Of a DNA stretch of 64,000 nucleotides, positions 2,806 through 56,780 are shown piece after piece. Positions within the stretch are counted from its first letter, which is position 1. The number at the start of each line of letters is the position of its first letter. The DNA comes from Candidatus Micrarchaeota archaeon (GTDB lineage Archaea > Micrarchaeota > Micrarchaeia > Norongarragalinales > Norongarragalinaceae). A program made the position numbers and the translations under genes. The DNA lies in NCBI GenBank assembly GCA_964630975.1, contig CAZVVY010000002.1, positions 44,633 to 108,632 on the forward strand, in the 5' to 3' direction. The notes beneath the pieces are model-generated. The model saw only the letters and a list, made by a program, of their open reading frames with translations, made no database searches and was not told the DNA's origin.

Positions 2806-3930
2806 TTGAAGTCGCAAATGGTTTTTCCGGGAGGACTAACAAAGGAGGAATTCGTTAAAAAAGTGGAGGAAAACGTTCGCCTCAATGACTTGTATTTCGT
2901 TTGCCAGCCGTCGGCCGTGGAACACGTCGCCTTCGACTTGATGCGGCTCGGAGTTCCCCGCAAAAACTTTTTCACGGTGGGCGCCGACGAATTCGGCGAC
3001 GGCGAAAAACGCTTTTACGTATCCCACGAAGACGAAAAAGCCTTGAAAAAAGCCGCTTCCCTCAAAAAACCGCGATTCGTAATACTCACGGGCACGCGGC
3101 CCTTTAAGCAGGCGGACGACTGGCTCGACGCTTTCTTCACGCTGGAAGCCGCCCAACCCGTGTTGCCGACGAAACGCACGATTCCGGTGTGCACTTACGC
3201 GGCTTACCTGCGCGGCCACCGCAAGACAAAGGACGGCAAGGGCGGCCGCGCCTTCGCCTCCGAGCCCTTGGCCGCCTCGGCCCTAGTCGACTCGGTTCTG
3301 CAAAAGCCGTTCGGCTCCAAGTATTGCATCGTAACCCCGCACACCGTTGAAAAAGGAATACTCAAAAAGTTGTTGAAGCCGTTTTACCCGATGGGCGCCT
3401 TCGTGGAAGCCGCGCGCCGCGCCTACCCCGACTTGAACGTGAGCTTGTTCGCACCCGACGAGGAAGCATCCATAACGGTGCGCGCCGAACTCGACAAGGC
3501 GATGGGTCGAAAAGTGAACACGGCCTTCGTACGAAAATTCCGCGGAGCCGGAGTCGACGAAACCGAAGCCGAAGAATTCGTGGGCGACGTTTCCGGCACC
3601 AACGTGTTGTGCTTCGACGACTTGACTTCCACGGGCGGCTCACTCGAACGAACCGTCAAAAAATCGTTGGAGCAAGGCGCCAAAGGAGTGATGGTCGGCG
3701 TAACCCACATGGTTACCTTGCCCGCGCTCGTGCGCCTCCTCGAATCCAAAGCCGACCACGTCGTTTTCACGAATTCAATCGACTTGAACTACCTGCTCTC
3801 AACCGACCGCAAGCTCTCCAAGAAAGCAACCCAACTCGCGAGAAGGCATTACGGCAAGAAGTTGAAGTACGTCAGCATTGCGCCCGCCATCCTCTCGCAA
3901 AGCGCCCGCATACTGGCAAAGAGGAAGTAA
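2806..3930 (+). CDS. Divergent ribose-phosphate pyrophosphokinase-like phosphoribosyltransferase
   Basis: Prs-like layout: FGDGEKRFYV (compare FSDGE), YAAYLRGHRKTKDG (compare YxRQDRK), then the PRPP-binding loop VLCFDDLTSTGGSL and GVTHMV...VVFTNSI. Confidence 0.55.
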   Translation: MKSQMVFPGGLTKEEFVKKVEENVRLNDLYFVCQPSAVEHVAFDLMRLGVPRKNFFTVGADEFGDGEKRFYVSHEDEKALKKAASLKKPRFVILTGTRPFKQADDWLDAFFTLEAAQPVLPTKRTIPVCTYAAYLRGHRKTKDGKGGRAFASEPLAASALVDSVLQKPFGSKYCIVTPHTVEKGILKKLLKPFYPMGAFVEAARRAYPDLNVSLFAPDEEASITVRAELDKAMGRKVNTAFVRKFRGAGVDETEAEEFVGDVSGTNVLCFDDLTSTGGSLERTVKKSLEQGAKGVMVGVTHMVTLPALVRLLESKADHVVFTNSIDLNYLLSTDRKLSKKATQLARRHYGKKLKYVSIAPAILSQSARILAKRK

Positions 3931-6322: not shown

Positions 6323-7126
6323 GCTGATTACAGTAGAAATTTTGTCAAGGCCTTAAACCTCAAACCAGTACTAGCACTCAATACGACGATCTACTACAGT
6401 AGAAATTTTGTCAAGGCCTTAAACTTCCTTGCGTTGCCCACTCAAACCCCCATCTACTACAGTAGAAATTTTGTCAAGGCCTTAAACGCGACAACTTCAC
6501 GGTAGGATACTGGTTATCTACTACAGTAGAAATTTTATCAAGGCCTTAAACCGGGTTATACCGAATTCATTTCGGCTACCATCTACTACAGTAGAAATTT
6601 TATCAAGGCCTTAAACTGTATATTGAAGTAGTATCTCCCGCAACATCTACTACAGTAGAAATTTTGTCAAGGCCTTAAACTGGTCACGGGCGAACGAGAA
6701 GGAATCGGATCTACTACAGTAGAAATTTTGTCAAGGCCTTAAACACCAACAGTCAATGTTCGCCCACCACCGAATCTACTACAGTAGAAATTTTGTCAAG
6801 GCCTTAAACTGGTGGGCGCACGTGTTGGCACTACCAATCTACTACAGTAGAAATTTTGTCAAGGCCTTAAACAGTTCAACGATTAAGTTTTACGTGAACA
6901 TCTACTACAGTAGAAATTTTGTCAAGGCCTTAAACCTATTCGCGTATTCAATACTGCGTGCGTATCTACTACAGTAGAAATTTTGTCAAGGCCTTAAACA
7001 ATACAAGTCATACCTTTATGGGACGCATCTACTACAGTAGAAATTTTGTCAAGGCCTTAAACCTCGATGCTTACTATAGCGTCAATCGGGATCTACTACA
7101 GTAGAAATTTTGTCAAGGCCTTAAAC
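6323..7126 (-). CRISPR. CRISPR array of Cas12a type: 13 repeats of 36 nt and 12 spacers of 27-30 nt
   Basis: Plus-strand repeat is atctactacagtagaaattttgtcaaggccttaaac. Its reverse complement, GTTTAAGGCCTTGACAAAATTTCTACTGTAGTAGAT, ends in the Cas12a 5'-handle stem-loop (UCUAC-UGUA-GUAGA), so the array is transcribed on the minus strand like the cas genes. Repeat starts: 6323 (degenerate), 6389, 6452, 6516, 6581, 6645, 6709, 6774, 6837, 6900, 6964, 7027, 7091. The repeats at 6516 and 6581 carry one substitution (ttttatcaagg). Confidence 0.97.
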
Positions 7127-7349
7127 AGCGCGTTTTTTGGTCCGAATCTAATTCGGTCTTTATTTGCCTTTAATTGTTTTGCCTACCAGGTTTTGGAAAT
7201 CACTCCAAAACGATTTTTTCAGATTATTCCTATTTTTTGATATGCTATCCGAATTCTTAAAACCTTTGTTTTTGGTTGTCTAACGCGTTTTTAGAAAAGA
7301 AAACGCTTTTTTTTATCTCAAAAATGCGGGGCGAGGTTTGCAGTTTTTT
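7127..7349 (-). promoter_or_regulatory. CRISPR leader (AT-rich, between the cas2 stop and the first repeat)
   Basis: A 223-nt non-coding A/T-rich stretch lies immediately upstream (minus-strand sense) of the intact-repeat end of the array. The degenerate repeat is at the opposite end. No transcription start can be read from sequence alone. Confidence 0.55.
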
Positions 7350-7622
7350 TTAGTGCATTATTAAGTCGGTTTCCTCGTTTTTGGCGTACCCGAACCGCAT
7401 TATTTGGTCTGATTTTTTTATTTCAAAAATTAGGATATTATCTCCTTGCGTGAACCTTTTTTCAAAGCGATGTTTGATGTTGGTTTTCACTATTTCGAGT
7501 ATTCTTTTGCTGTTGTTTATTTCATATACCGAGTATTGCAGTCGGCGGCCGTAACCTAAAATGAATTTTGAGAAATCGGTTCTCAAGTCGTCGTCTTGAA
7601 TGTCGTAGGAGAGAATAATCAT
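7350..7622 (-). CDS. cas2: CRISPR-associated endoribonuclease Cas2
   Basis: 90 aa, MIILSYDIQDD...RLQYSVYEI. Size and pattern fit Cas2. There is a 4-nt overlap with the cas1 stop. Confidence 0.85.
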   Translation of the reverse strand: MIILSYDIQDDDLRTDFSKFILGYGRRLQYSVYEINNSKRILEIVKTNIKHRFEKRFTQGDNILIFEIKKSDQIMRFGYAKNEETDLIMH

Positions 7623-8575
7623 TTTTTATGCCTGCTTAATTCAAAGACGGGGTATTCATCAATGTTTTTTTCCTTGATGAATGCTCGGTAATATTTTTGT
7701 ATGTACAAAAATATTTCTTCCTTGTTTTCAAGTATTTCTTTTAGGAATAGTTTTGAGTATTTTTTATTGAATTCTCGTTTCAAGTAGTATTGGCCGTTGA
7801 CTATTTTAAAGTCGGATGCGTTTATTTGTTTTAGGTTCGCGCTTTTTCTTATCCTTTTTTCGATTATGCACCGGAACGGTTCCATTAAGTCGCAAACCAG
7901 TGATTTTCTTTGGAAAAAGAATTTGTGGTAAACGCCGCAGTAAGTGTCGAAACCGTATAGTTCTAGGTTGGCTTCGATGAAGTTGAATAGATAGTAGTAC
8001 CCGATATCGAAAAGTAAATTGAATTCGTCGGTTTTGCATCTTGGCTTCCTTACCTTAAAGCCGAGGTTTTTGAAATAAGTTGAAAAAAATGTTTTTGAGG
8101 CGTTGCCTTCAATTCCCAGCAATTCTTGGCTGTCCCTAGCAAACGTTGTTTGGTCGTATAAACGGGTTATTTGTTTTATTGCTTCCTTGTCTTTCTTGCT
8201 TTTGTATCTGAGTGATTGAATTAGTTTTTTTTGGTTGTTTACCTTGTTTTTTATGATGTGTTTAGCGATTTTGAGATCGTCGGATTTCGTGTATTGTTTT
8301 TTTCTTAATAGGAAGTTGCCTTTGTTGTCTGGAAGTATTGAAAAATATGGTTTTAGGTTGTAGCCTAGGAAGATTATTGGTACTGCGTGTTTTTTCGCTT
8401 TTTTTATTAGGATTGAGGTTACTGAGCACTCGCCTTTGATGAAAACCAAAAAAATTTTGCGGCAGGAATGTTGCAGTAGTATTTTGTTGTTTTCGTCGAT
8501 TAAAATCAGGTTGGAATTCTTGAATTTTATTTTATTGTTTTTTTTGCTTTCGATGAACAGTATTTGTTTTGACAT
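7619..8575 (-). CDS. cas1: CRISPR-associated integrase Cas1
   Basis: GIEGNASKTFF, DIGYYYLFNFIEANL, YCGVYH and SLVCDLMEPFR (conserved E/H/D core). I place the start at MSKQILFIE (ATG at 8575). The ORF track extends to 8680, and alternative ATGs at 8593/8596 would overlap the cas4 end. Confidence 0.9.
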   Translation of the reverse strand: MSKQILFIESKKNNKIKFKNSNLILIDENNKILLQHSCRKIFLVFIKGECSVTSILIKKAKKHAVPIIFLGYNLKPYFSILPDNKGNFLLRKKQYTKSDDLKIAKHIIKNKVNNQKKLIQSLRYKSKKDKEAIKQITRLYDQTTFARDSQELLGIEGNASKTFFSTYFKNLGFKVRKPRCKTDEFNLLFDIGYYYLFNFIEANLELYGFDTYCGVYHKFFFQRKSLVCDLMEPFRCIIEKRIRKSANLKQINASDFKIVNGQYYLKREFNKKYSKLFLKEILENKEEIFLYIQKYYRAFIKEKNIDEYPVFELSRHKK

Positions 8576-8585
8576 GAAGTCGGGC

Positions 8586-9146
8586 CTACTCATCATCAGT
8601 ATAATAATCGCATAAGTGCCTATAAATGCATTTTCTACATTTGTTCGGGTTTTGAGTAAAGTTCGCGTCTTCCAAATCAAATGACTTCATTTCGGCGATT
8701 ACTTGCTTTAATCTCTTTTTTTCTGTCATTGACGGAAGTTTAACCGCGTAATTTTTGTTGTCCGAAAGAGATCGAAGAATAATTTTTTTTATTTGGTAAC
8801 CCATTTCGGTTAAGCAGTAGTATTGAGCATAAACTTGTAACAAGTATCCTTCATAGAGTTTCCTTATTTTGTTCTTCCTTTCTATCAGCGTTTTTTTCTT
8901 AACGTCGAATATATCTATTTTTCCGGTTAAACCGAGTTCTTCGCTGTAGACGCTTAACCCCGCCAATATTTTTTTCTTGGTTGAGTAAGTGCCGTCGTCT
9001 ATTCTTTTGTGGGCGTTGGTTCCGCGGACTTGGCACGCGCTTTGATAAGTTTCCTTATCGAGTTGATAATACAAATTATGAAAATAGATGCTTCGCGGGC
9101 AAAAAAGGAAGTCGTTTAAGTTGGATATTGCAATGTTTTCTTCCAC
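8586..9146 (-). CDS. cas4: CRISPR-associated RecB-like exonuclease Cas4
   Basis: 186 aa with N-terminal Cys (FCPRSIYF), the nuclease core GKIDIFD...LIERKNK, and the C-terminal Cys cluster CRKCIYRHLC. Confidence 0.88.
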   Translation of the reverse strand: MEENIAISNLNDFLFCPRSIYFHNLYYQLDKETYQSACQVRGTNAHKRIDDGTYSTKKKILAGLSVYSEELGLTGKIDIFDVKKKTLIERKNKIRKLYEGYLLQVYAQYYCLTEMGYQIKKIILRSLSDNKNYAVKLPSMTEKKRLKQVIAEMKSFDLEDANFTQNPNKCRKCIYRHLCDYYTDDE

Positions 9147-9149
9147 GGT

Positions 9150-12100
9150 TTACTTGCTCCGTTCAACTGCGAAGTTGATGAAGTCGTTCCTGCTGATTAG
9201 TAAATCGAGTTTTTTCTTTCCTTTGTTGGCCTTTATTCTTTCCAAGAGCATTAATCCTTTCAACCCTATGTGGTAAGCGCCGTTCGCGTCGGCGTCCTTG
9301 GGCTCGTTGTCTTTAGCTTTTCTTGAGTCGAAGAATTCGCCGTTTTCGTCTTTTACGCAGGAAAGTACGTAATCTTCTTCGGGGTCTTTTCTTGAGTTGC
9401 GTAACATTAAAATCGTTTTAAAGATTTTAATGAGGTTTTCAAAGAAAGCTTTTTTGTTTTGGCTGGCTATTTGGCTTATAATATTTTCGTCTTTTTGGAA
9501 GGAAACCCCGTATTCTTTGAACAATATTTTTAGTTTTTCGTTCGGTTTGACTTCCTTTGTATCCCATGAATTGTTTTTATTCTTGTTTCTGAAGCCGACT
9601 AGTTTCGTTCCGTTCGAGTAAACCGACCAATTGTCTTGAATTATTTTTGTTTCTTTTTTTCCGTTTTTAATGAATTTGGAGTAGTCGAAGTTGAATTCGA
9701 ATAAGCCTTCGCTCGAATCGTATTTGATGTAGTTGAATTTTTTGAAGAATTCCTTAGCTTTTTCTATGTTCTTGAATTTAGGTCTTAACAGATTTACGAA
9801 GCCTGTTTTCGGGCAAATCTTCGAGGTGTACGCCGCGGGAACGTAGTATATTATACCTGTTTCTTTTCCGAGTTTCTTAAATCCTTCAAATTTTCCGGTT
9901 AGTTGGTATGCGTTTAGGGATCCGCCGGCTTCTTTTTCGGTTCTTTCCTTGAAAACCAAGTAATTGAGTTTGTCTATTAGTTTTTTCTCGAACTTTTGGT
10001 ATACTTGCTTCTCGATTTTTAATCTCCCGCGCTTGAAGTCTAAGTTCAGGTCTTCCAAGACGATTATCGCGTTTTTTTCTATTGCGAGTTTAGCGATTTT
10101 GTGTACGATTTGGGATAGGTAGCCATCCTTCAATTTCTTTATGGTCTCGATTTTCTGCCAGCTTTTCCTTGCTTTGTCGCGTTCTTTTTCGCGTTCATCC
10201 AGTTTTTCGTGGTAATCACGTTTTCTTTCTTTGTCGTCCGAGATTACGTTGAAAGAGCCTTGTTCTTGGATTTCTCCTTTTGAATTCAATAGCGTGTAGT
10301 ACGCCAAGTGCCTTTCCCCGCGGTCAATGCTTAACACGAAAATGTCATCTTTTGTTTCGCGTATGTGGTCGTTGACCCGCTTGTTAATCGTTTTGCTGCC
10401 ATCGCGCGCCTGGAAGTTCAAGGTTATCGGGCAGTGGAAGAAGAAACGGTCTTCGGTGTACCTTTTGTTTTTTATAAAGTCGTATTTGAATTTACTGAAT
10501 TTTTTCCCTTTAATCGGGTCTTTGTTTTCTATTTTTTGGTTTTTTGGGTGAGTTACTTTCCTTTCCATTGACTTTGGGCGGTAGAATATTTCGGCTTCGC
10601 CGTTTAATTTGTAAGTTATGTCTGAAAGGTTTTCTTTGGAGAATAGTTCTTTCCAGTAAATTGTGTGCAGGTTTTTACGGCCTTCCGAATACTTCGAAAA
10701 GTCCTTGTTCCAAATTTGGAATAAGTAAAGTTTTCCTTCTTCGACCAAGTCAAGCAAATATTTTTCGCTTATTTTTTTGAATTCTATTTTATAGCCTTGG
10801 TCGGATACTTCTTTATAAAATTCTGATATGTCGACGTAATCTTCCGTTTTTTTGAATTGGAAATCGTATTCTTTCCATTCGGGGTGTTTTTGAATGCTCT
10901 TTTTGTAAAAGTCAATCATTTTATGGCAATCGCTTAATCGGAAATCCCTTTTTTTGAACCCGTTTTGTGGGTTTCCATGCTTGGTGTGGGCAGAGTGATT
11001 ACGAATCGCTTCGATTTCTTTTGATGGCTTGTAAAATGAAATGTTTTTTTTTGCAAATAATATTCTAGGTAGATTTTTTTCTGGGGTAGGCAATAATTTG
11101 TAGTCTATTTTTTCAAAATAATTTTTTCCAGCCGGAAGCCGTTCCAGTTCGTCAAAAACGTTTTTTTGTTTTGGGGTCATAATGGCTAAGTAGTATGACT
11201 CCTCTTTTCTCAATATAACAGAATAATAGTCTTTTTCCTTGTTTTTGTCCCAGCCGCTTAGGAGTTTGGGATTTTCAAAGTTTAACTTGAATTTTTCGGT
11301 GCTGAACGGTTTTTGCGTAACATAGTTTCTGACTTGATTGTATAGTGGGATTATATTCCCTAGTTCCGCAAACGATTCGTCGAAATCGTTATAGAAATCG
11401 TTATCGGTTTCAAGTGCCTCTGAATCCTTTTCTTTCTTGTTTTTGAAGTTGATGTTGAGGGGTTTTATGAAGTGGTATAGCCGCATTATTGAGTCCAGTA
11501 ACGCCTTTATTCTTGCGACGTTGGGCTCTTGGCTTTCAGCAGTTAATTTCTTTTTTTTGTCACTTATTTTTTCATATTCAGTGCGCGCTTTTTTTATTTC
11601 TTGAATCAAGTTTGTCTTTTTTTCTTCTAGTTTTGAGAAATAATTACATATCGGGTGTCCGGTTGAACCGATTTTTTTGAGGCCGCTCTCTATTTCGTGG
11701 ATTGAATACCTGCCTTTTTTCATCCATTTTTCTATTTTTTTGTCGGTTTTGAGGCCGAGTTCGGTTTTCGCGTATTCCCTTAGGGCTTGAAGTACTCTTT
11801 CCCGATCCCCGAATACTTCTTGTGAAATTCCTGTTAGGCATCTATCGTTTTTCAAGTAAACTAATTCCAAATCTTTTTCTTCTAGCTTTTCGAGGGTCGC
11901 TTCTATTTTTTTGAGTGTTTCCAAGCTTATTTTATCGTAAAATTCGTCTATTGCATCGAATACCTCCGTATTTTCCTCGAATTTTTCGAATGCGAACGAG
12001 GAGGATTTGCGGTCACTTAAGATTTGCTTGAATAACGGCGCGAGTTTTAATTTTCTAACCTTTTTTTGCTCGTTTTTGTCCGCTTGTTTTTGGGCGAGTT

Positions 12101-12914
12101 CGTTGACTAATTCGTTTAAGCCCTTTATTTTATTGTTGCCTTCTTCGCTTTTGCCTCCTATGATTAAGTTGAATTTTTCTATTCCTTCTTGGTTAAGGCA
12201 GTTGTTGAAGTTTTTCAAGTTGAAAAAATCTTTTAATTTCTCTCCGTTCAACTCGCTTTCAAAGTTTTCTTCTATTTGGTTGGCGTCAAATTCCTTGTAT
12301 CTGGTTATTTCTCCGAAGCGTGAAACGTCATCTAGGAATTTCGGTAGGTTGTCGTTGACTATCCTGTAAATCATTGACGTCGAAATTTCATCGCTTGAAA
12401 AAACGTTTTTGCGGTTGTTAAAAAAACCGCTAAAGTAGGTAACCCATTTATCGAATTTTTCGATTTCTTTGAGTTCCTCTTTTTTCCCTTTTTTTTCGAG
12501 CCATTCCGGCAATATTTTTTTGATGAATTCTTTCTTGAACAAGTATTTGAATTCTTCTTTTTTATTTATTTCGTCGTGAATTAGTTTCCTTAATTGTTTT
12601 TGGAGTTTTGCGTATTCTTCCCTTAATTTTTTGTTGTAAGGGTCTTTTTTCAGTTTCGTGTAAGCGTTGTTGTTTTCTTCCAATTTTTTTAACGGTATCT
12701 TGGCACCTTCCAAGCATTCTTCTATGAATTGCTTGTAGTATCCGTCCATTATTTTTTTGACTTTGTTGAAATCTTTTTGGCGTTGTTCGTCTTCTGTAAT
12801 CAGGTTGCGATCTTGAATTTTCTGCAGTGTTTTGCCGACTGGCTTTAATTCGAAGCGTAGAGTTTTCGTTAGGGGGTATTGGTTTGTAAACGAATCCCAA
12901 GTCGAGACCTTCAT
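9150..12914 (-). CDS. cas12a: Cas12a (Cpf1), type V-A effector, 1254 aa
   Basis: N-terminus FTNQYPLTKTLRFELKPVGKTL. Pre-crRNA RNase region KVTHPKNQKIENKDP...FIKNKRYTEDRFFFHCPITLNF. RuvC-I LSIDRGERHLAYY, RuvC-II AIIVLEDLN, RuvC-III DADANGAYHIGLKG. Nuc region LRNSRKD...FFDSRK. The operon order cas12a-cas4-cas1-cas2-array is canonical for type V-A. Confidence 0.97.
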   Translation of the reverse strand: MKVSTWDSFTNQYPLTKTLRFELKPVGKTLQKIQDRNLITEDEQRQKDFNKVKKIMDGYYKQFIEECLEGAKIPLKKLEENNNAYTKLKKDPYNKKLREEYAKLQKQLRKLIHDEINKKEEFKYLFKKEFIKKILPEWLEKKGKKEELKEIEKFDKWVTYFSGFFNNRKNVFSSDEISTSMIYRIVNDNLPKFLDDVSRFGEITRYKEFDANQIEENFESELNGEKLKDFFNLKNFNNCLNQEGIEKFNLIIGGKSEEGNNKIKGLNELVNELAQKQADKNEQKKVRKLKLAPLFKQILSDRKSSSFAFEKFEENTEVFDAIDEFYDKISLETLKKIEATLEKLEEKDLELVYLKNDRCLTGISQEVFGDRERVLQALREYAKTELGLKTDKKIEKWMKKGRYSIHEIESGLKKIGSTGHPICNYFSKLEEKKTNLIQEIKKARTEYEKISDKKKKLTAESQEPNVARIKALLDSIMRLYHFIKPLNINFKNKKEKDSEALETDNDFYNDFDESFAELGNIIPLYNQVRNYVTQKPFSTEKFKLNFENPKLLSGWDKNKEKDYYSVILRKEESYYLAIMTPKQKNVFDELERLPAGKNYFEKIDYKLLPTPEKNLPRILFAKKNISFYKPSKEIEAIRNHSAHTKHGNPQNGFKKRDFRLSDCHKMIDFYKKSIQKHPEWKEYDFQFKKTEDYVDISEFYKEVSDQGYKIEFKKISEKYLLDLVEEGKLYLFQIWNKDFSKYSEGRKNLHTIYWKELFSKENLSDITYKLNGEAEIFYRPKSMERKVTHPKNQKIENKDPIKGKKFSKFKYDFIKNKRYTEDRFFFHCPITLNFQARDGSKTINKRVNDHIRETKDDIFVLSIDRGERHLAYYTLLNSKGEIQEQGSFNVISDDKERKRDYHEKLDEREKERDKARKSWQKIETIKKLKDGYLSQIVHKIAKLAIEKNAIIVLEDLNLDFKRGRLKIEKQVYQKFEKKLIDKLNYLVFKERTEKEAGGSLNAYQLTGKFEGFKKLGKETGIIYYVPAAYTSKICPKTGFVNLLRPKFKNIEKAKEFFKKFNYIKYDSSEGLFEFNFDYSKFIKNGKKETKIIQDNWSVYSNGTKLVGFRNKNKNNSWDTKEVKPNEKLKILFKEYGVSFQKDENIISQIASQNKKAFFENLIKIFKTILMLRNSRKDPEEDYVLSCVKDENGEFFDSRKAKDNEPKDADANGAYHIGLKGLMLLERIKANKGKKKLDLLISRNDFINFAVERSK

Positions 12915-31487: not shown

Positions 31488-31852
31488 TCACTCACTTGCG
31501 CGCCCTCGCCTTCCTGCTTGGGCATCGATTTCTCCAACTCGCCCCTCAACTCGGCGCTCTTCTTCTGCAGTTTCTCGGTTTGGCTGTTGAACAAGGTTAT
31601 CCTGGAATCCAATTCCTCTTTTTCCTTCTTCAACTCTGCTTCCAACTCTTCCTTTGTGCGCGGCACGATTATGCCCCCCACGTACTTGTAGAACTTGTCG
31701 CCGCCCTTGCCCACTTCTTCGAGCGCCTTATCCAACTCCATTTTGCGGCCCTGTAAGGACTGCAACTGGTAGGTTATAAACTGGAGTTGTTGTTGTGCCT
31801 GCTGGAACTCGGCCAGTGCCTTGCGCGTTTCTTCATTCAATTCCTTTGCCAT
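31484..31852 (-). CDS. pfdB: Prefoldin beta subunit
   Basis: 122 aa coiled coil - beta hairpin (YKYVGGIIVPRTKEE) - coiled coil architecture. Confidence 0.8.
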   Translation of the reverse strand: MAKELNEETRKALAEFQQAQQQLQFITYQLQSLQGRKMELDKALEEVGKGGDKFYKYVGGIIVPRTKEELEAELKKEKEELDSRITLFNSQTEKLQKKSAELRGELEKSMPKQEGEGAQVSE

Positions 31853-32276
31853 CGTAAACCACCTTTGCCTTGAATTCGGGGCCGACTCGCTCGCCCCCGC
31901 ACTCGATGAATAACTTGTCTTTTTCCACCGTTATTACGTTTTCCCCGGCTTCGCTTTCACCGAACAATTTTTTCGCCCATTCAGGCCCCTTCACGGCGAA
32001 GCCCTTGCCGGCTTTTCCGCCGTGTTCCTTCAACCCCCTTAATTCAATTAACGGCTCCAACCAGCCGCCCTCGTAAAACGAGAGAACCGAAGGGTTGCCT
32101 TTCATCTCGTAAACGAGTAAGAGCCGCGAATAGCCGGCGGCACCCGCGCGCGCCGCCACTTCCGCCAGGCTGCGCTTGCCGCGGTTCTCGTACTTGCCGG
32201 TGACTCGGCCCAGAAAGCGGGCGACTCGGCGCGTCAGCTGAGACGGCTTTCGGGAAGTCGTAACGAATACGCTCAT
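31833..32276 (-). CDS. Brix/Imp4-domain ribosome-biogenesis protein
   Basis: MSVFVTTSRKPSQLTRRVARFLG...ENRGKRSL. I start at the ATG at 32276. The ORF-track extension to 32369 has no support and approaches the tRNA. Confidence 0.65.
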   Translation of the reverse strand: MSVFVTTSRKPSQLTRRVARFLGRVTGKYENRGKRSLAEVAARAGAAGYSRLLLVYEMKGNPSVLSFYEGGWLEPLIELRGLKEHGGKAGKGFAVKGPEWAKKLFGESEAGENVITVEKDKLFIECGGERVGPEFKAKVVYDGKGIE

Positions 32277-32393
32277 ACCAACATTACTCCTTAAACGAAT
32301 TAAAAACGCCGGGGCTGAGGAACCAAGTTGACTCCTCAACTCCGCTCGGTGCTTCGTCCTCGTCGTCAACTTCCGTTCACGGGTTTCTTTTAG

Positions 32394-32575
32394 CGCCGGG
32401 ACTGAGATTCGAACTCAGGCGGCCTTTCGACCACTGGTTTTCCAAAAACCCGCTTGCCCGCTTTGACTCCGCTTGATGCTTCGTCTTCAGCGGCCAACCC
32501 CGTTTACGGAACGAACGGTTCGCTTCGTTCGCGGGTTGTTCAAGACCAGCGCAATAACCACTCTGCCATCCCGGC
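32394..32575 (-). tRNA. tRNA-Ser(UGA) with a 99-nt intron at the canonical 37/38 position
   Basis: Hand fold. 5' exon: GCCGGGA-UG-GCA-GAGUGGUUAU-UGC-G-CUGGU-CU-UGA-A. The 3' exon AACCAG closes the anticodon stem, followed by the long variable arm UGGUCGAAAGGCCGC, T arm CUGAG-UUCGAAU-CUCAG, acceptor UCCCGGC and discriminator G. Intron is 32440-32538. No encoded CCA. Confidence 0.85.
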
Positions 32576-32757
32576 TTCCAATTATCTTTTTGACCTTTCT
32601 TTTTAATGAACGTTTTTCTTCGGGGAAGAAAAAAGTTCGCGCCAATAACCACTCTGCCATCCCGGCTTCCAATTATCTTTTTGACCTTTCTTTTTAATGA
32701 ACGTTTTTCTTCGGGGAAGAAAAAAGTTCGCGCCAATAACCACTCTGCCATCCCGGC
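32576..32757 (-). repeat. Two perfect 91-nt tandem units upstream of tRNA-Ser, each a 63-nt spacer plus a 28-nt copy of the tRNA 5' end
   Basis: The spacers at 32576-32638 and 32667-32729 are identical. The fragments at 32639-32666 and 32730-32757 (GCCGGGATGGCAGAGTGGTTATTGGCGC in RNA sense) match tRNA positions 1 to ~27 with one extra G. Confidence 0.95.
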
Positions 32758-32796
32758 AACAACGAATTAATATGTTCCCCGCGTCGTTTAATTGTT

Positions 32797-32886
32797 ATGC
32801 CTAAGAAGACGAAGTATGACGGCCTCGTTTACAACGTTACCACGGAGTCCGGTAATTTGTTTGCCAACGGCGTGCTCGTCCACAAC
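32797..32886 (+). other. Split-intein C-fragment (IntC, 30 aa)
   Basis: Hint blocks F/G: LVYNVTTE...[10 protein letters not shown], followed by the +1 Ser of the extein. Confidence 0.8.
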
Positions 32887-34143
32887 TCGGGCGGCCTCGG
32901 CACTCCGCCGCACTTGCGCGTTGAGCCGGGCGCGATTCACCGCGCACACAAAGGAGTACTGTTCATCGACGAAATCGCTTCGCTGTCGCCCAAATCACAG
33001 CAGGAATTGTTGACTGCAATGCAGGAAAAAAAGTATTCGATTACCGGGCAAAGCGAGATGAGTTCGGGCGCGCTAGTGCACACCGCGCCCGCGCCCTGCG
33101 ACTTCGTTCTCGTGGCTGCGGGAAACTACAAGGAGTTGCGCAGAATGCATCCGGCCCTGCGCAGCCGAATCCGCGGCTACGGCTACGAAGTGTACATGGA
33201 GGACTCGATGCCGGACACCGCCGAGAACAGGTGGCGTATAGTCGAATTCATCGCCCAGGAAGTGGAAAAGGATGGTAAAATACCGCACTTCAACCGCGCC
33301 GCAGTCGAATTAATCGTTAACGAGGCGCGCAAGCGCGCGGGCCGAAGAAACAAGTTGACCCTCAAATTGCGTGAGTTGGGAGGCCTCGTGCGCGCCGCGG
33401 GAGACGTTGCGCGCACACGCAAGCACAAGCTCGTCACCGAAAAAGACGTGAAGGAAGCGTTGAGTATCGCGACCACTCTCGAACAACAAATTTCGCGGCA
33501 AGTCGTTGACGCGCGCAAGGACTACCACGTGTTCCTGACCGAAGGCGCGCAAGTGGGCAAAGTCAACGGTCTCGCCGTAATGGGTGATTCCGGAATAATA
33601 ATGCCCATAGTGGCAGAGGCGGCGCCGTCCGCGTCCCGCGAGGAAGGCCGCGTAATCGCGACCGGTAAGCTCGGCGAAATCGCGCGCGAAGCCGTTGAAA
33701 ACGTGAGCGCGGTGTTGAAGAAATACCTCGGCGAAAACGTGCGCGCTTACGACTTGCACATTCAATTCCTGCAGACCTATGAAGGGGTGGAAGGGGATAG
33801 TGCCAGCATCTCGATTGCAGCCGCCGTGATTTCAGCGTTGCATGAGGTGGCAATCCGCCAGGACGTTGCAATGACGGGGTCGTTGAGCGTTCGCGGCGAA
33901 GTCCTGCCCGTTGGCGGGGTTACCGCGAAAATTGAAAGCGCTTTGGACGCGGGTTTGAAGACCGTTTTGATTCCGAAAGCGAATTACGAGGACTTGGGAA
34001 CGCTCGACAAAAAAGCGAAAAAACGCGTAATACCCGTTTCCAACATAATAGAGGTTTTAGAGGAGTCTTTGAAGCCCGGAAAAAAGAAGTCGGCGCTCAT
34101 CCGCAAAATGAAGAAGTCCTTCAAGGAAAACGGCTGGAAGTGA
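32797..34143 (+). CDS. lonB: LonB protease C-terminal half preceded by a 30-aa C-intein (split gene)
   Basis: [30 protein letters not shown] | [30 protein letters not shown] (Walker B)...[11 protein letters not shown]...[16 protein letters not shown] (catalytic Ser)...[10 protein letters not shown] (catalytic Lys). The Walker A and TM regions are missing here and are found at 55779-56780. Confidence 0.9.
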
Positions 34144-34969: not shown

Positions 34970-35259
34970 CAACGCTTCAACACGCTGGTTACCGCTATTA
35001 TGATTCCGACGGCCATTAGGATGGTAGGCCAAATCGGGAGGTCATAAGCCCACCAGCCCACTTCGTTTCCGAAGAAGAACAAGCCGAGCGCTATTAGTAT
35101 GAGACCTACTGCAATTGAGCCCGCGCCGTCTTCGTGGCAGCACTCGCCTTCTTCGGCGAGCTTCTCCATTTTCCTGCCGAAGCGTTCGGCTTCGCGCTCC
35201 ATCTCCTTTTCAACGTTCCTTTTTTTCTTAACCGTTTTTTTTCGAGCCAATTCAAGCAC
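34969..35259 (-). CDS. Small membrane protein with a charged N-terminal region
   Basis: 96 aa: a Lys/Glu-rich N-terminus, then two TM segments (IAVGLILIALGLFFFGNEVGWWAYDLPIWPTILMAVGIIIAV). Confidence 0.4.
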   Translation of the reverse strand: MLELARKKTVKKKRNVEKEMEREAERFGRKMEKLAEEGECCHEDGAGSIAVGLILIALGLFFFGNEVGWWAYDLPIWPTILMAVGIIIAVTSVLKR

Positions 35260-35325
35260 CTCTGGAATAAACTATTTTTTTCGGCGAATAAAAGGGGTTT
35301 TGATTGAATGAAAAAGAAGAATTAG

Positions 35326-36422: not shown

Positions 36423-36557
36423 TCCCGCAGGCCAGATTTCCAAAACGCCTTTTTCTTTTGAAAAGAAAAAGTTTTTTTTTTGAACTGGCAACCCCCTGAT
36501 ATCCACTTGGATTTTCTAACTACAGTCAGGTGCTCTGCCAAATTGAGCTACTGCGGG
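36423..36557 (-). tRNA. tRNA-Tyr(GUA) with two introns: 19 nt at 37/38 and 42 nt inside the T-loop
   Basis: Hand fold: CCCGCAG-UA-GCUC-AAUUUGGCA-GAGC-A-CCUGA-CUGUAG[19-nt intron 36501-36519]A-UCAGG-GGGUU-GCCAG-UUCAAA[42-nt insert 36437-36478]U-CUGGC-CUGCGGG-A. The C1-G72 pair is typical of archaeal tRNA-Tyr. The mature length would be 74 nt. Confidence 0.8.
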
Positions 36558-52425: not shown

Positions 52426-52456
52426 GCGTTTTTAATTTTCCTTTACTTTTTTTCTT

Positions 52457-53869
52457 ATGAATTTTGAATCGACCGCCGAAACAAGCATTCCAAAGGACCC
52501 GCTGGAACAAGTCATCGGGCAGGATAACGCGGTTCACATAGCCAAAGTCGCGGGCCGGCAGCGCCGCCACTTGTTGATGGTCGCCCCGCCGGGCACCGGC
52601 AAAAGCATGATTGCGCAGGCAATCGCCTACCACTTGCCGAAGCCGACCGAGGAAATCAGCGTCCTCCACAACGCGGCTAACCCGGAGCGCCCGGTACTCG
52701 AAGTGCGTTCCACAGAGGAAGCCGCCAAGGAAGACGCTTTGGCCCAGGGAGTTCGCGGCAGGCTCGTCGAACCAGTGGAAGTCCCTTCGTTCGTAGCCGA
52801 ACGCCTCGGGTTCCGCTGCCGCAAGTGCGGGTCGCTCAGCCGCGCCTCGCAAAAGGCGTGCCCCAAATGCGGGTTCGACAAGCGCTTTTCGGAGAACCCT
52901 TTCCCAAACATTTACGTCGGAGTAGAGGAAAAACCGGAGCGCGTGCACACTACGCGCCTTCGCGACGACAACTCCGAGGAAGTAATCGTTTACGAGCGCG
53001 CCGGGGAAAAAGTGCGCATACTCGACCAATCCTCCTTGCAAGCGTTGGAGGACTTGAAGAGGCGCGGCCCGCGCAAGGTACTCGTGCCATTCGACCGCAA
53101 GCCGTTCGTGGTCGCCACGGGCTCGTCCGAAACCGAGCTCTTGGGCGACGTCAAGCACGACCCTTACGGGGGCCACCACCAAATCGGGACTCCGGCCTAC
53201 CAGCGAGTCGTCCCCGGGGCGATACACGAAGCCCACCAAGGCGTGCTCTTCATAGACGAGTTGAGTGCATTGGCGGGAGTGCAACGCTACTTGTTCACGG
53301 CGATGCAGGAAAAAAAGTATGCTATTTCCGGCCGCAACCCTCAAAGCGCGGGCGCAAGCGTGCGCGTGGATGCCGTGCCCTGCAACTTCATACTGGTCGC
53401 GGCAAGCAACATAAACGACTTGCCTTACATTTTGCCGCCTTTGCGCTCGCGCATCAAGGGCAACGGCTACGAGGTCTTGCTGGAAACCGTGATGCAGGAC
53501 ACCCCGCAAAACCGCGAAAAACTCTTGCAGTTTACCGCCCAAGAAATACGCAAGGACGGAAAAATCCCGCACGCAAACCCGAAAGCAGTCGAAGCGTTGT
53601 GCGACGAGGCACGAAAAATCGCGCGCGAATTCGACGGCGCCGAAAACTCTTTGACCCTGCGCTTCCGCGAGTTAAGCGGGTTGATTCGCTTGGCAGGCGA
53701 CATAGCCGTCGGCAAAGAAGCAGAATTAATCGAGCCGGCATTCGTCAAGGAAGCAGCCGAACGCGGCAAAAACATCGAACAACAATTAAGCGAAAAATAC
53801 GGGTCGGTGTGGCGCGCCTCGCAAGAGGAAGCCGCGAAGACGCGCGGCCGCCAAAAGGAAGTCGGCTAA
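52457..53869 (+). CDS. LonB-like AAA+ ATPase lacking both TM helices and protease domain, with a zinc-ribbon insert
   Basis: Walker A APPGTGKS, the insert CRKCGSLSRASQKACPKCG, and LLGDVKHDPYGGHHQIGTPAYQRVVPGAIHEAHQGVLFIDEL (Walker B), RSRIKGNGYEV. The protein ends after the AAA+ lid with no GDSAS/K protease motifs. Confidence 0.75.
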   Translation: MNFESTAETSIPKDPLEQVIGQDNAVHIAKVAGRQRRHLLMVAPPGTGKSMIAQAIAYHLPKPTEEISVLHNAANPERPVLEVRSTEEAAKEDALAQGVRGRLVEPVEVPSFVAERLGFRCRKCGSLSRASQKACPKCGFDKRFSENPFPNIYVGVEEKPERVHTTRLRDDNSEEVIVYERAGEKVRILDQSSLQALEDLKRRGPRKVLVPFDRKPFVVATGSSETELLGDVKHDPYGGHHQIGTPAYQRVVPGAIHEAHQGVLFIDELSALAGVQRYLFTAMQEKKYAISGRNPQSAGASVRVDAVPCNFILVAASNINDLPYILPPLRSRIKGNGYEVLLETVMQDTPQNREKLLQFTAQEIRKDGKIPHANPKAVEALCDEARKIAREFDGAENSLTLRFRELSGLIRLAGDIAVGKEAELIEPAFVKEAAERGKNIEQQLSEKYGSVWRASQEEAAKTRGRQKEVG

Positions 53870-55778: not shown

Positions 55779-56780
55779 TTGCGTGGAAGTGTTTTAGTGG
55801 CCGAAAAAAAGTCGAAGAAGAATTATTTGCCGAAGGGATTCAAGAGCACGGCTTCCCTCAAAGTGAAGAAGCGCTTGGTGGACCAAGTCGTAGGGCAAGA
55901 GCGCAGCGTGGAAATAATTCGCAAGGCCGCCTCGCAAAAACGGAACGTGTTGTTGATTGGAACCCCGGGAACCGGGAAAAGCATGCTTGCCCAGGCGATG
56001 AGCGAGTTGTTGCCCGTGCAAAAACTGTTCGACGTACTCGTAAAGAAAAACCCTGAAAACGAGAACGCGCCCTTGATTGAATCCGTTCCCGCGGGCCAAG
56101 CAAAAAAAATCCTCGAAAAAGAACGAAGCAAGGCGCGCGTGCCCGCCAACAACACGAGTTTGGCGATAACCGTTGCCTTGTTCGTTTTCTCGTTTTTGCT
56201 TCTCACTTTTTGGAGGGAGTCCCTCGGCGACATCATTACCGCCGCCCTACTGATTTGCCTCTTCGTGATGGGGGGCATAATGGCGGTCGGCTCGCAGTTA
56301 GGCCGCGGAATGAAGGTATTCGATTACGCGGACGCCGTAAAAATCCTGGTGGATAACGCCAAGCAAAAGCGCGCGCCGTTCGTGGACGCCACGGGCGCGC
56401 GTTCGGGCGCTTTGCTCGGCGACTGCCGCCACGACCCGTTCCAATCGTTTTCGCCCGATACGACGGTTGCCTGCAAAGGGGTTGAGACGACGATGGGCGA
56501 GTTGTGGCAAAAGTATTCCGCGAAGTACCCGGAACTAATTGAAACGAATGAAGACGGTTACCAAGCAATTGTTTTGCCGGAAAACGAAGAAGTTTTCGTG
56601 GACGGGTTCGTTGACGGCGCTGAAAGCAAAGTGCGCGTTCGCATAATCAATCGTCGGCCTTACAGCGGCGAACTCGTGGAAGTCGGCGGGTTGAAGACGA
56701 CTCCCGAACACGTTTTCATCACGAAGAACGGCGAGAAAAAGGCGTTGGACGTAACGGAAAGCGAGTTAATCACGCAATGA
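55779..56780 (+). CDS. lonB: LonB protease N-terminal half (Walker A plus two TM helices) fused to a 111-aa N-intein (split gene)
   Basis: VVGQERSVEIIRKAASQKRNVLLIGTPGTGKS (Walker A), TMs LAITVALFVFSFLLLTF and ITAALLICLFVMGGIMAVG, and GALLGDCRHDPFQ | SFSPDTTV...GGLKTTPEHVF...ELITQ-stop. The start is TTG at 55779 or GTG at 55797. Confidence 0.88.
   Translation: MRGSVLVAEKKSKKNYLPKGFKSTASLKVKKRLVDQVVGQERSVEIIRKAASQKRNVLLIGTPGTGKSMLAQAMSELLPVQKLFDVLVKKNPENENAPLIESVPAGQAKKILEKERSKARVPANNTSLAITVALFVFSFLLLTFWRESLGDIITAALLICLFVMGGIMAVGSQLGRGMKVFDYADAVKILVDNAKQKRAPFVDATGARSGALLGDCRHDPFQSFSPDTTVACKGVETTMGELWQKYSAKYPELIETNEDGYQAIVLPENEEVFVDGFVDGAESKVRVRIINRRPYSGELVEVGGLKTTPEHVFITKNGEKKALDVTESELITQ
56445..56777 (+). 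other. Split-intein N-fragment (IntN, 111 aa)
   Basis: Begins with Ser1 in block A (SFSPDTTV) immediately after the conserved LonB DPFQ. Block B T-x-x-H is present (LKTTPEHVF). Ends at a stop codon where a homing endonuclease or linker would sit. Confidence 0.8.

What the first reader, a model, noticed from the sequence alone, without database searches (positions are those of the whole stretch)
32576..32757. Two perfect 91-nt tandem units upstream of tRNA-Ser, each a tRNA 5'-end copy plus a hairpin and promoter-like spacer
Seen in sequence (read in tRNA sense, minus strand), the layout is F'-U-F'-U-[full tRNA-Ser].
- F' is GCCGGGATGGCAGAGTGGTTATTGGCGC: tRNA positions 1 to ~27 (acceptor 5' strand plus D-arm) with one extra G. 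Both copies are identical.
- U is a 63-nt spacer, identical in both copies: GAACTTTTTTCTTCCCCGAAGAAAAACGTTCATTAAAAAGAAAGGTCAAAAAGATAATTGGAA.
- U begins with a T-run and a perfect 9-bp hairpin (TTTTTCTTC-CCC-GAAGAAAAA), extended by GAAC/GTTC.
- U then has an A-rich box, ATTAAAAAG, centred about 27-28 nt before the next GCCGGG. That is where an archaeal TATA box would sit.

Each unit therefore looks like a mini-gene: promoter, 28-nt tRNA 5' piece, then hairpin/oligo-T terminator.

Inference, three alternatives:
(a) Tandem duplication of the promoter and 5' exon by slippage.
(b) Serial att-site scars from integrase events at the tRNA.
(c) Functional 5' mini-exons of a fragmented (split or tri-split-like) tRNA system whose partner pieces lie elsewhere. 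The break near position 26 resembles the 25/26 junction reported for tri-split tRNAs.

I cannot discriminate between these from this window.
Basis: partly seen in the sequence, partly recalled or inferred. Interest (0 to 1): 0.65.

Follow-up and report, generated by a model that had tools for sequence, protein, structure and literature searches.

The report
Duplicated tRNA-Ser 5′ stump cassette
Upstream of a serine tRNA gene in a tiny DPANN archaeon (Micrarchaeota) sit two identical 91-base cassettes, each a dead copy of the gene's first 24 bases plus a terminator hairpin and a replacement promoter; it is an old recombination relic that strains gain and lose, not a split tRNA.

Summary
Window 32576-32757 holds two perfect 91-nt units directly upstream of a tRNA-Ser(UGA) gene. 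That gene carries a 99-nt intron, so default tRNA finders miss it.

Each unit has three parts:
- tRNA positions 1-24, then one extra base and CGC;
- a 13-bp T-run/A-run hairpin;
- a TATA-like box 32-24 nt before the next GCCGGG.

Comparison with other assemblies and relatives decides most of the interpretation.
- **Copy number varies.** Near-identical strains carry 0, 1 or at least 2 units.
- **The cassette is old.** A single homologous cassette, usually also 91 nt, lies at the same place in five other Micrarchaeota lineages. Two of those lineage groups also include genomes with none.
- **The core is conserved.** Hairpin plus TATA is 89-98% identical, with compensatory stem changes. The 20 nt before the tRNA are scrambled.
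- **The stump is not held to tRNA rules.** It tracks its own tRNA's sequence but can lose invariant tRNA bases.

The second copy is therefore an unequal-recombination or slippage duplicate. The cassette itself is most likely a minimal relic of a recombination event in the 5' part of the gene. That event was probably integrase-type, leaving the displaced 5' fragment plus terminator plus new promoter. The split-tRNA reading is not supported. No mobile element or free attP was found. Interest is moderate.

The parts
32786..32793 (-). P1: native TATA-like box AATTAAAC, 36-29 nt upstream of the first stump. It lies in the 39-nt divergent intergenic region (32758-32796) shared with the Lon-C gene.
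   Evidence: The motif AACAATTAAA sits at nearly the same distance as in the promoter of tRNA-Asp in this window. It is conserved in L076, L010 and L023. In 0-unit strains it lies directly upstream of the full tRNA. Promoter activity is inferred, not measured.
32734..32757 (-). F'1: stump copy of tRNA-Ser positions 1-24 (GCCGGGATGGCAGAGTGGTTATTG).
32667..32733 (-). U1: 67-nt spacer. Contents: GCGC; hairpin GAAC-TTTTTTCTTC-CCC-GAAGAAAAA-C-GTTC (32699-32729); box ATTAAAAAG (32690-32698); a 23-nt non-conserved run to the next +1.
32643..32666 (-). F'2: second, identical stump.
32576..32642 (-). U2: second, identical spacer. Hairpin at 32608-32638. Its ATTAAAAAG box (32599-32607) is the promoter (P2) that would drive the real tRNA gene.
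32393..32575 (-). tRNA-Ser(UGA) gene: exon 1 at 32539-32575, 99-nt intron at 32440-32538 (canonical 37/38 register), exon 2 at 32393-32439.
   Evidence: ARAGORN with introns allowed. Precursor and mature folds.
32302..32392 (-). 3' trailer relic with no T-run separating it from the tRNA. It holds a paralogue of the intron's 3' two-thirds (about 32338-32383), a degenerate tRNA 3' end GGTTCCTCAGCCCCGGCG (32307-32324), and a T5 run (32302-32306).
   Evidence: Local alignment score 36 against 14.7 +/- 2.3 for shuffles. Conserved in L010, and present twice in L076.
32797..34143 (+). Divergent neighbour: intein-C plus the C-terminal part of LonB. Context only.
31833..32276 (-). Downstream neighbour: Brix/Rpf1-like gene, used as a synteny anchor. 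Context only.

Best explanation
What it is (shown): two identical copies of a 91-nt cassette.
- Each begins with a non-functional stump of the adjacent tRNA-Ser(UGA) gene: positions 1-24, one extra base, then CGC.
- Then comes a 13-bp hairpin with a T6 run on one strand and a T5 run on the other.
- Then a TATA-like box sits 32-24 nt before the next GCCGGG.

How it works (inferred from sequence and from general knowledge of archaeal transcription):
- The native promoter P1, and the promoter of unit 1, each start a transcript that contains only the stump. It ends at the oligo-T run, giving a dead-end RNA of about 40 nt.
- Only the last promoter produces pre-tRNA-Ser. That precursor is then spliced (99-nt intron) and trimmed from a relic-bearing trailer.
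- The hairpin/T-run keeps stump-containing read-through RNA from being fused to the tRNA. It also stops antisense transcription towards the Lon-C gene.

History (shown by comparison):
- One cassette is an old feature of this gene in a clade of Micrarchaeota.
- Recombination or slippage between the 24-nt or 91-nt direct repeats repeatedly duplicates it (here) or deletes it (0-unit strains).
- The same process keeps the stump identical to the real 5' end.

Origin of the first cassette (inferred, least certain): a site-specific, integrase-type insertion into the 5'-distal part of the gene. It displaced the original 5' fragment with its promoter and supplied a new promoter. The interior of the insert has since been reduced to the two parts that still matter, terminator and promoter.
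For: Anatomy and perfect repeat.

Copy-number states with identical flanks:
- 2 units in the window and in L001;
- 1 unit in L002;
- 0 units in L005, where the flank joins the full tRNA directly;
- Logan contig ends that fit at least 2 units.

Homologous cassette in five other lineages:
- L076, period 90;
- L010, L023/L078 and L024, period 91;
- L083-L088, period 116, plus a decayed older unit upstream.

Presence/absence in other lineages:
- within the UBA95 species, the intergenic region is 286 nt in some assemblies and 377 nt in others, a 91-nt difference;
- L024 has the unit while L081, with the same flank, does not.

Shared derived features: an extra base after position 24 and the tail CGCG[A/G]A occur in all lineages, which argues for a single origin.

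Conservation:
- the U core is 89-98% identical (77-83% for L010);
- the 20 nt before the tRNA are 32-64% identical;
- the hairpin is paired in 100% of cells, with two compensatory pairs.

Concerted evolution: each stump matches its own lineage's tRNA best, at positions 7, 16 and 22.

The stump is not under tRNA constraint: GG to CA in the D-loop of L023/L078, and G1 to A in L010.

Promoter and terminator readings:
- P1 has the same motif and spacing as the tRNA-Asp promoter;
- similar T-rich palindromes lie in other intergenic regions, such as window 36450 between two same-strand ORFs.

Other tRNA-fragment relics in the clade:
- 3' relics behind tRNA-Ser;
- a 170-nt insert bounded by a 38-nt repeat behind tRNA-Asp in L076, with an empty site in the window.

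Precedent from the literature:
- pTN3-like integrases use the 5' half of a tRNA gene, and the restored gene is expressed from an element promoter (PMC8371274);
- CalSub-E1 sits in the 5'-distal part of a tRNA-Ser gene, and re-use of att sites gives arrays (PMC6563490).
Against: - No integrase gene, element DNA or attP-bearing element was found. Only 67 nt lie between the repeats. IMG/VR gave either no hit or hits with no similar context around the match. Phage and plasmid searches gave only weak, partial matches at E about 0.6-0.7.
- The hairpin abuts the TATA box in every lineage. A larger element would have had to be trimmed once, early, to exactly this minimum.
- No transcript data exist, so P1, P2 and T6 activity are unproven.
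- The core is more conserved than a generic promoter and terminator strictly need to be. The cassette also persists although precise loss is easy and evidently viable. Both facts leave room for an unrecognised function.
Confidence: 0.6

Rival explanations
1. Purely local origin with no mobile element. An ancestral tandem duplication of the whole tRNA-Ser gene (promoter, tRNA, trailer, terminator hairpin) was followed by an internal deletion in the upstream copy, from about position 28 to the hairpin. A 5' deletion in a downstream copy left the 3' relics. Later copy-number changes arose by unequal crossing-over.
For: - In L023/L077 the functional tRNA is followed by a GAAC...GTTC T-rich hairpin resembling the one in U. 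After it come a 3' fragment and a repeated trailer start (TCCCAAAG / TCCCAGAC).
- The window trailer holds a paralogue of the intron plus a 3' end.
- No element was found.
- Arrays with decayed older units exist.
Against: - U shows no significant similarity to the native upstream flank P1: score 12 against a shuffled mean of 12.8.
- No lineage with two intact tandem genes was seen among the loci examined.
- The L076 tRNA-Asp insert has the 38-nt bounded-repeat form typical of site-specific insertion.
Confidence: 0.2
2. The cassette is selected for a function of its own. One version: it is a mini-gene making a ~40-nt tRNA-5'-fragment-like RNA. Another: the palindrome next to the BRE/TATA is an operator for a dimeric regulator of tRNA-Ser(UGA) expression. 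Copy number would then tune the dose.
For: - The core is 89-98% identical across lineages whose Brix-like protein is only about 43% identical. The adjacent 20 nt are randomised.
- There are two compensatory changes in the palindrome.
- The motif ATTAAAAAGAA[AG] occurs only in this context in about 548 kb of fetched DNA.
- The cassette persists in six lineages although precise deletion is easy.
Against: - It is dispensable: there are 0-unit strains in two species, and 0-unit lineages L081, L025 and L036.
- The stump accumulates changes at invariant tRNA positions.
- L010 has a relaxed core at 77-83% identity.
- Conservation of a TATA box with fixed spacing and of a terminator is expected once P2 is the only promoter that yields tRNA.
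Confidence: 0.12
3. The stumps are functional 5' mini-exons of a split or tri-split tRNA whose partner pieces lie elsewhere.
For: Promoter-stump-terminator anatomy.
Against: - A complete tRNA-Ser(UGA) gene is adjacent.
- The units are absent in viable strains and lineages.
- G18G19 or G1 is lost in some stumps.
- The 3' extension is only 8 nt before T6 and is part of a self-complementary hairpin.
- There is no orphan 3' piece, and no tRNA-like context at GTTCGCGC sites in the window.
Confidence: 0.02
4. Assembly artefact: the second unit comes from mis-assembly of a single-copy locus.
For: One MEGAHIT assembly of run ERR2407577 shows a single unit (L002).
Against: - The JGI contig has two units.
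- Logan k=31 contigs from three runs break exactly at the two branch nodes that exist only with at least 2 units.
- Units of this kind, and decayed second units, occur in other species.
Confidence: 0.03

Closest known systems
Displaced tRNA-gene fragments left by elements that integrate into the 5' half of a tRNA gene. Examples: pTN3-like SSV-family integrases of Thermococcales; CalSub-E1 in tRNA-Ser of Ca. Caldiarchaeum (PMC8371274, PMC6563490).
   Same: - A direct repeat made of the tRNA 5' end.
- The original promoter is left with a dead 5' fragment.
- The intact gene is restored and driven by a promoter from the inserted DNA.
- Empty sites occur in relatives.
- Re-use of the site can give arrays.
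   Different: - Only 67 nt lie between the repeats, with no integrase moieties or element genes.
- The same minimal insert is conserved across six lineages.
- The two units here are identical duplicates, not two different elements.
Integrase-less att-flanked remnants (cis-mobilisable elements, CIMEs) and other eroded genomic islands at tRNA genes. This comparison is from my own knowledge and was not checked in the literature here.
   Same: attL-like and attR-like repeats are retained after loss of the recombination genes. Tandem accretion at one site is possible.
   Different: CIMEs are kilobase-sized and bacterial. Here the remnant is a terminator plus a promoter, and nothing shows that it can still be mobilised.
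Copy-number-variable tandem duplications produced by unequal crossing-over or replication slippage between short direct repeats.
   Same: Perfect head-to-tail copies, 0/1/2 polymorphism among near-identical strains, and homogenisation of the repeated 24 nt.
   Different: The repeat unit is itself a structured promoter-stump-terminator cassette with a conserved core, not anonymous DNA.
Split and tri-split tRNA genes (Nanoarchaeum equitans, Caldivirga maquilingensis).
   Same: A short tRNA 5' piece with its own promoter-like box, in a DPANN archaeon that also has a split protein gene.
   Different: - There is no complementary leader.
- A full gene is adjacent.
- The stump is dispensable and decaying.

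Membership tests
att scar of a 5'-distal tRNA-integrating element | A direct repeat consisting of part of the tRNA gene brackets the insert. | tested here: met
   A 24-nt exact repeat of tRNA positions 1-24 brackets the 67-nt U.
att scar of a 5'-distal tRNA-integrating element | An empty (unoccupied or precisely excised) site exists in close relatives. | tested here: met
   L005, L077/L079 and L081 join the flank directly to the full tRNA.
att scar of a 5'-distal tRNA-integrating element | The insert supplies a promoter for the restored gene. | tested here: inconclusive
   A TATA-like box at -32 to -24 is conserved in all lineages. No transcription data exist.
att scar of a 5'-distal tRNA-integrating element | An integrase gene (or its split halves) and element genes lie between the repeats. 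| tested here: not met
   Only 67 nt lie between the repeats, with no conserved ORF. The +-strand ATG frame differs between lineages (my reading of the sequences).
att scar of a 5'-distal tRNA-integrating element | A free or integrated full-length element carries the matching attP (promoter, core, hairpin). | tested here: not met
   Four IMG/VR scans gave either nothing or matches with no similar context. Phage and plasmid BLAST gave only weak partial matches at E about 0.6-0.7.
Split / tri-split tRNA gene | The fragment is required, with no contiguous gene for the same tRNA. | tested here: not met
   A full tRNA-Ser(UGA) gene lies immediately downstream. 0-unit genomes exist.
Split / tri-split tRNA gene | The 3' extension of the 5' piece is complementary to the leader of a 3' piece, forming a bulge-helix-bulge (BHB) splice junction. 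| tested here: not met
   The extension is GCGCGAAC followed by T6, and it is part of a self-complementary hairpin. No partner lies in the window. The rest of the genome could not be searched.
Split / tri-split tRNA gene | The fragment keeps the invariant tRNA nucleotides. | tested here: not met
   G18G19 has become CA in L023/L078. G1 has become A in L010.
Tandem duplication by unequal recombination or slippage | Head-to-tail identical copies with copy-number polymorphism between close strains. | tested here: met
   100% identity over 2.3 copies. States of 0, 1 and at least 2 units. A 91-nt presence/absence difference within a second species.
Archaeal oligo-T terminator (with hairpin) | A run of at least 5 T on the transcribed strand at the end of a transcription unit. 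| tested here: inconclusive
   T6 in the tRNA sense and T5 in the antisense are conserved, and the stem is 100% paired with two compensatory pairs. Similar palindromes lie in other intergenic regions. Termination was not measured.

The most novel reading that the evidence does not exclude
The promoter-stump-terminator cassette is kept by selection as a genetically encoded tRNA-5'-fragment gene. Alternatively, it is a palindromic operator-promoter module controlling tRNA-Ser(UGA). In either case recombination-driven copy number (0/1/2) acts as a dosage or phase switch in Micrarchaeota.
Probability: 0.12. Interest if true: 0.75.

Novelty: new variant of a known kind. Interest (0 to 1): 0.4.

Why it matters
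- It documents a compact relic at the 5' side of a tRNA gene in a DPANN archaeon. Recombination into the 5'-distal part of tRNA genes is described as much rarer than into the 3' part (PMC6563490).
- It shows how such a relic can be pared down to terminator plus promoter and then persist across lineages.
- It gives a clean natural example of concerted evolution and copy-number flux driven by a 24-nt repeat.
- It is a warning for annotation and assembly. The tRNA is missed by default tools, a spurious 124-aa ORF is called over it, and short-read graphs break there.
- It leaves one real puzzle: why a dispensable cassette keeps a 46-47-nt core at about 90% identity.
- It does not add a new case of split tRNAs.

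Tried and rejected
- **U as a copy of the native upstream flank.** Smith-Waterman score 12 against a shuffled mean of 12.8, so rejected.
- **Known RNA families.** An Rfam E-value scan of 32250-32810 gave only chance-level hits, E >= 0.37.
- **attP or element search.** Four IMG/VR pattern scans gave nothing or hits with unrelated context. BLAST against phages and plasmids gave only weak partial matches at E about 0.6-0.7.
- **GTDB genome scan with the 23-nt stump.** It found only single-copy tRNA-Ser genes, in Bathyarchaeia, Nitrosopumilales and Micrarchaeota UBA95 tRNA-Ser(GGA), and no double hits.
- **Small conserved ORF in U.** Rejected, because loop-length differences shift the frame between lineages (my reading of the sequences).
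- **Partner pieces for a split tRNA in the window.** None found.
- **A BHB that would splice out a unit.** Rejected on logic: the two junctions are direct repeats and cannot pair, and T6 intervenes.
- **The 7-mer CGCGAAC shared by the stump tail and the 99-nt intron.** Judged uninformative, because relatives with the same tail have unrelated short introns.

Full report
**1. The observation**

Read on the minus strand, the region runs as follows:
- a 39-nt flank;
- stump F' (GCCGGGATGGCAGAGTGGTTATTG) followed by the 67-nt spacer U, twice;
- the full tRNA gene.

Tandem Repeats Finder gives period 91, 2.3 copies, 100% identity and score 412 at 32552-32757. U occurs exactly twice, against 0 expected in shuffles. 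Default ARAGORN and Rfam at gathering threshold do not see the tRNA. With introns allowed, ARAGORN finds tRNA-Ser(UGA) at c[32393,32575] with a 99-nt anticodon-loop intron. The spliced 84-nt sequence folds as a class II cloverleaf.

**2. Organism and context**

- The neighbours are the C-terminal part of LonB on the plus strand, divergent and 39 nt from the first stump, and a Brix/Rpf1-like gene on the minus strand downstream.
- Homologues of both are named Candidatus Micrarchaeota, a DPANN lineage.
- The other three tRNA genes in the window have A/T boxes at about -38 to -29.
- The flank before the first stump carries AACAATTAAAC at -36 to -29. This is the same motif and nearly the same distance as the tRNA-Asp promoter.
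- That flank therefore looks like the original tRNA-Ser promoter (P1). The box in U (P2) sits 3-4 nt closer to +1.

**3. The same locus in other assemblies of the same species**

The Brix protein is 100% identical in all of these.

| Assembly | Source | State |
|---|---|---|
| L001 (= the window) | JGI contig | 2 units |
| L002 | MEGAHIT contig, run ERR2407577 | 1 unit |
| L005 | Logan contig, run SRR26284128 | 0 units |

- In L005 the flank ...TCGTTGTT is joined directly to GCCGGG of the full gene. The only other difference is one base in the variable arm.
- Logan contigs from ERR1878617 and ERR2407577 end at ...TTATTGGCGCGA.
- Logan contigs from ERR1878617 and ERR2407578 start at TTGGAAGCCGGG....
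- Those are exactly the two 30-mers that branch in a k=31 graph only if at least two units are present. This is my inference.

The repeat is therefore real and its copy number is polymorphic. The insert relative to the empty site is a 24-nt duplication of the tRNA 5' end plus 67 nt of other DNA.

**4. Relatives**

Using the Brix and Lon-C homologues as anchors, I recovered the locus from five other lineages that carry the cassette.

| Lineage | Relatedness to window | State |
|---|---|---|
| L076 | Lon-C 96% identical | 1 unit, period 90 |
| L010 (GCA_054919755.1) | Brix 90% identical | 1 unit, period 91; the stump starts with A |
| L023/L078/L080 (UBA95 species) | Lon-C 86% identical | 1 unit, period 91, plus a small decayed fragment upstream |
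| L083-L088 (GCA_002792915.1) | Lon-C 71% identical | 1 intact unit, period 116 with a second TATA box, behind a decayed older unit |
| L024 | Brix 43% identical | 1 unit, period 91 |

Absence is also seen:
- L077 and L079, the same species as L078, have intergenic regions of 286 nt against 377 nt, a difference of 91.
- L081, which has the same flank as L024, has no unit.
- L025 and L036 have no unit.

All units share the extra base after position 24 and the tail CGCG[A/G]A. This points to one origin.

**5. What is conserved**

- The 46-47-nt U core (tail, hairpin, CATTAAAAAGAA[A/G]) is 89-98% identical between lineages, and 77-83% for L010.
- The 20 nt between the box and +1 are 32-64% identical. 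The exception is the closest pair, window and L076, at 95%.
- The 13 hairpin pairs are formed in 100% of cells.
- There are two compensatory changes: A-U to G-C in L024, and C-G to U-A in L010.
- The motif ATTAAAAAGAA[AG] occurs nowhere else in about 548 kb of fetched DNA.
- T-rich palindromes of the same style lie in other intergenic regions, for example window 36450 between two same-strand ORFs, and L021 7311. The hairpin type is therefore the local form of a bidirectional terminator.

**6. The stump**

- Each stump matches the 5' end of its own lineage's tRNA best. The informative positions are A7 versus G7, C16 versus T16, and TTATTG versus TTAATG.
- Yet it can lose invariant tRNA bases: G18G19 to CA in L023/L078, and G1 to A in L010.
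- This is the signature of homogenisation by recombination with the real 5' end, the same process that makes the 0/1/2 states. It is not the signature of selection for tRNA function.

**7. Mechanism**

Shown:
- the anatomy;
- the polymorphism;
- the conservation pattern;
- the concerted evolution.

Inferred:
- P1, and P2 of the upstream unit, start short transcripts that stop at T6. Archaeal RNA polymerase terminates at oligo-T; this is general knowledge, not tested here.
- Only the last P2 yields pre-tRNA-Ser.
- A plausible reason for keeping an efficient terminator concerns read-through. A read-through precursor would carry a second copy of the acceptor and D-arm 5' strand, and that copy could mispair with the tRNA body.
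- The second unit in this window is an unequal-recombination or slippage duplicate of the first.

**8. Origin of the first unit**

U is not detectably related to the native flank, so simple duplication of 'promoter plus 5' exon' does not explain it. Four observations fit what integration into the 5'-distal part of a tRNA gene produces:
- a displaced 5' fragment that keeps the old promoter;
- a bounded direct repeat;
- a new promoter on the insert side;
- empty sites in relatives.

That kind of integration is known for pTN3-like integrases and for CalSub-E1 in a tRNA-Ser gene (PMC8371274, PMC6563490).

The clade also shows other fragment relics:
- one or two intron-plus-3'-end relics behind tRNA-Ser;
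- a 170-nt insert bounded by a 38-nt repeat behind tRNA-Asp in L076, with the empty site in the window.

Against this origin, no integrase, element DNA or attP was found. A plain gene-duplication-plus-deletion history therefore remains a serious rival. It is helped by the similar GAAC...GTTC hairpin behind the tRNA in L023.

**9. Split tRNA**

This reading is not supported. Section 4 lists the genomes that lack the unit, and section 6 covers the decay of the stump. In addition:
- a full gene is adjacent;
- the extension of the stump is a self-complementary terminator, not a leader complement;
- there is no partner in the window.

**10. Verdict**

It is a conserved but dispensable promoter-stump-terminator relic at tRNA-Ser(UGA) of a Micrarchaeota clade, duplicated here. 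It is a new variant of known kinds (att-type tRNA fragment relic; copy-number-variable tandem duplicate). Interest is moderate. The unexplained point is the strength of core conservation in a cassette that can be lost precisely.

Noticed in passing
window 55779-56780 (+) and 32797-34143 (+): LonB is encoded in two pieces 23 kb apart, with a split intein. Lon-N ends ...RHDPFQ and continues into an intein-N-like tail (SFSPDTTV...ELITQ*). Lon-C starts with an intein-C-like peptide ([30 protein letters not shown]) before [12 protein letters not shown]. Relatives have either a contiguous LAGLIDADG intein at this site (P0046) or none (P0037). Lon-C forms of about 450 aa are common in DPANN. A literature search found no paper describing a split-intein LonB.
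   Followed up: partly
window 6329-12914: A type V-A CRISPR-Cas locus sits in a low-GC island (36-45% GC against about 55% in the flanking DNA): Cas12a at 9150-12914 (-), Cas4 at 8586-9146 (-), Cas1 at 7619-8680 (-), and a repeat array at 6329-7128. Spacers were not analysed.
   Followed up: partly
window 32440-32538 (intron) and 32302-32392 (trailer): The tRNA-Ser intron is 99 nt here. In relatives it is 22-33 nt or absent. Its 3' two-thirds form a structured module around GACGAAGCAYCRAGCGGAGT. A paralogue of that module lies in the 3' trailer, followed by a degenerate tRNA 3' end (score 36 against shuffles 14.7 +/- 2.3). L076 has two such trailer relics. No Rfam match.
   Followed up: partly
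L076 about 2980-3170 (minus strand), compared with window 35180-35325: Behind tRNA-Asp, L076 has a 170-nt insert bounded by a 38-nt direct repeat (13 nt of tRNA 3' end plus 25 nt of trailer). A T-rich hairpin lies directly before the displaced 3' fragment. The window has the empty site, and L010 has an older version.
   Followed up: partly
window 32377-32751 (-): A 124-aa ORF runs through the two units and the tRNA. It is called as a gene in the JGI annotation of the source contig and has no Pfam hit. It is almost certainly spurious.
   Followed up: yes
L021 4302-4497: tRNA-Ser(GGA) of Micrarchaeota UBA95 appears to carry two introns, one in the anticodon loop and one in the T-loop. It shares the first 27 nt with the window's tRNA-Ser(UGA). 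This was read by eye only.
   Followed up: no
window about 52454-53815 (+): A second Lon-like reading frame lies here. Its two tblastn pieces are 39% and 51% identical to a full-length LonB homologue, so it is a possible paralogue close to the Lon-N gene.
   Followed up: no
window 36450-36470: The T-rich palindrome TTTTTCTTTTGAAAAGAAAAA, followed by T10, lies between two same-strand ORFs. It is an example of the clade's generic bidirectional terminator style.
   Followed up: partly
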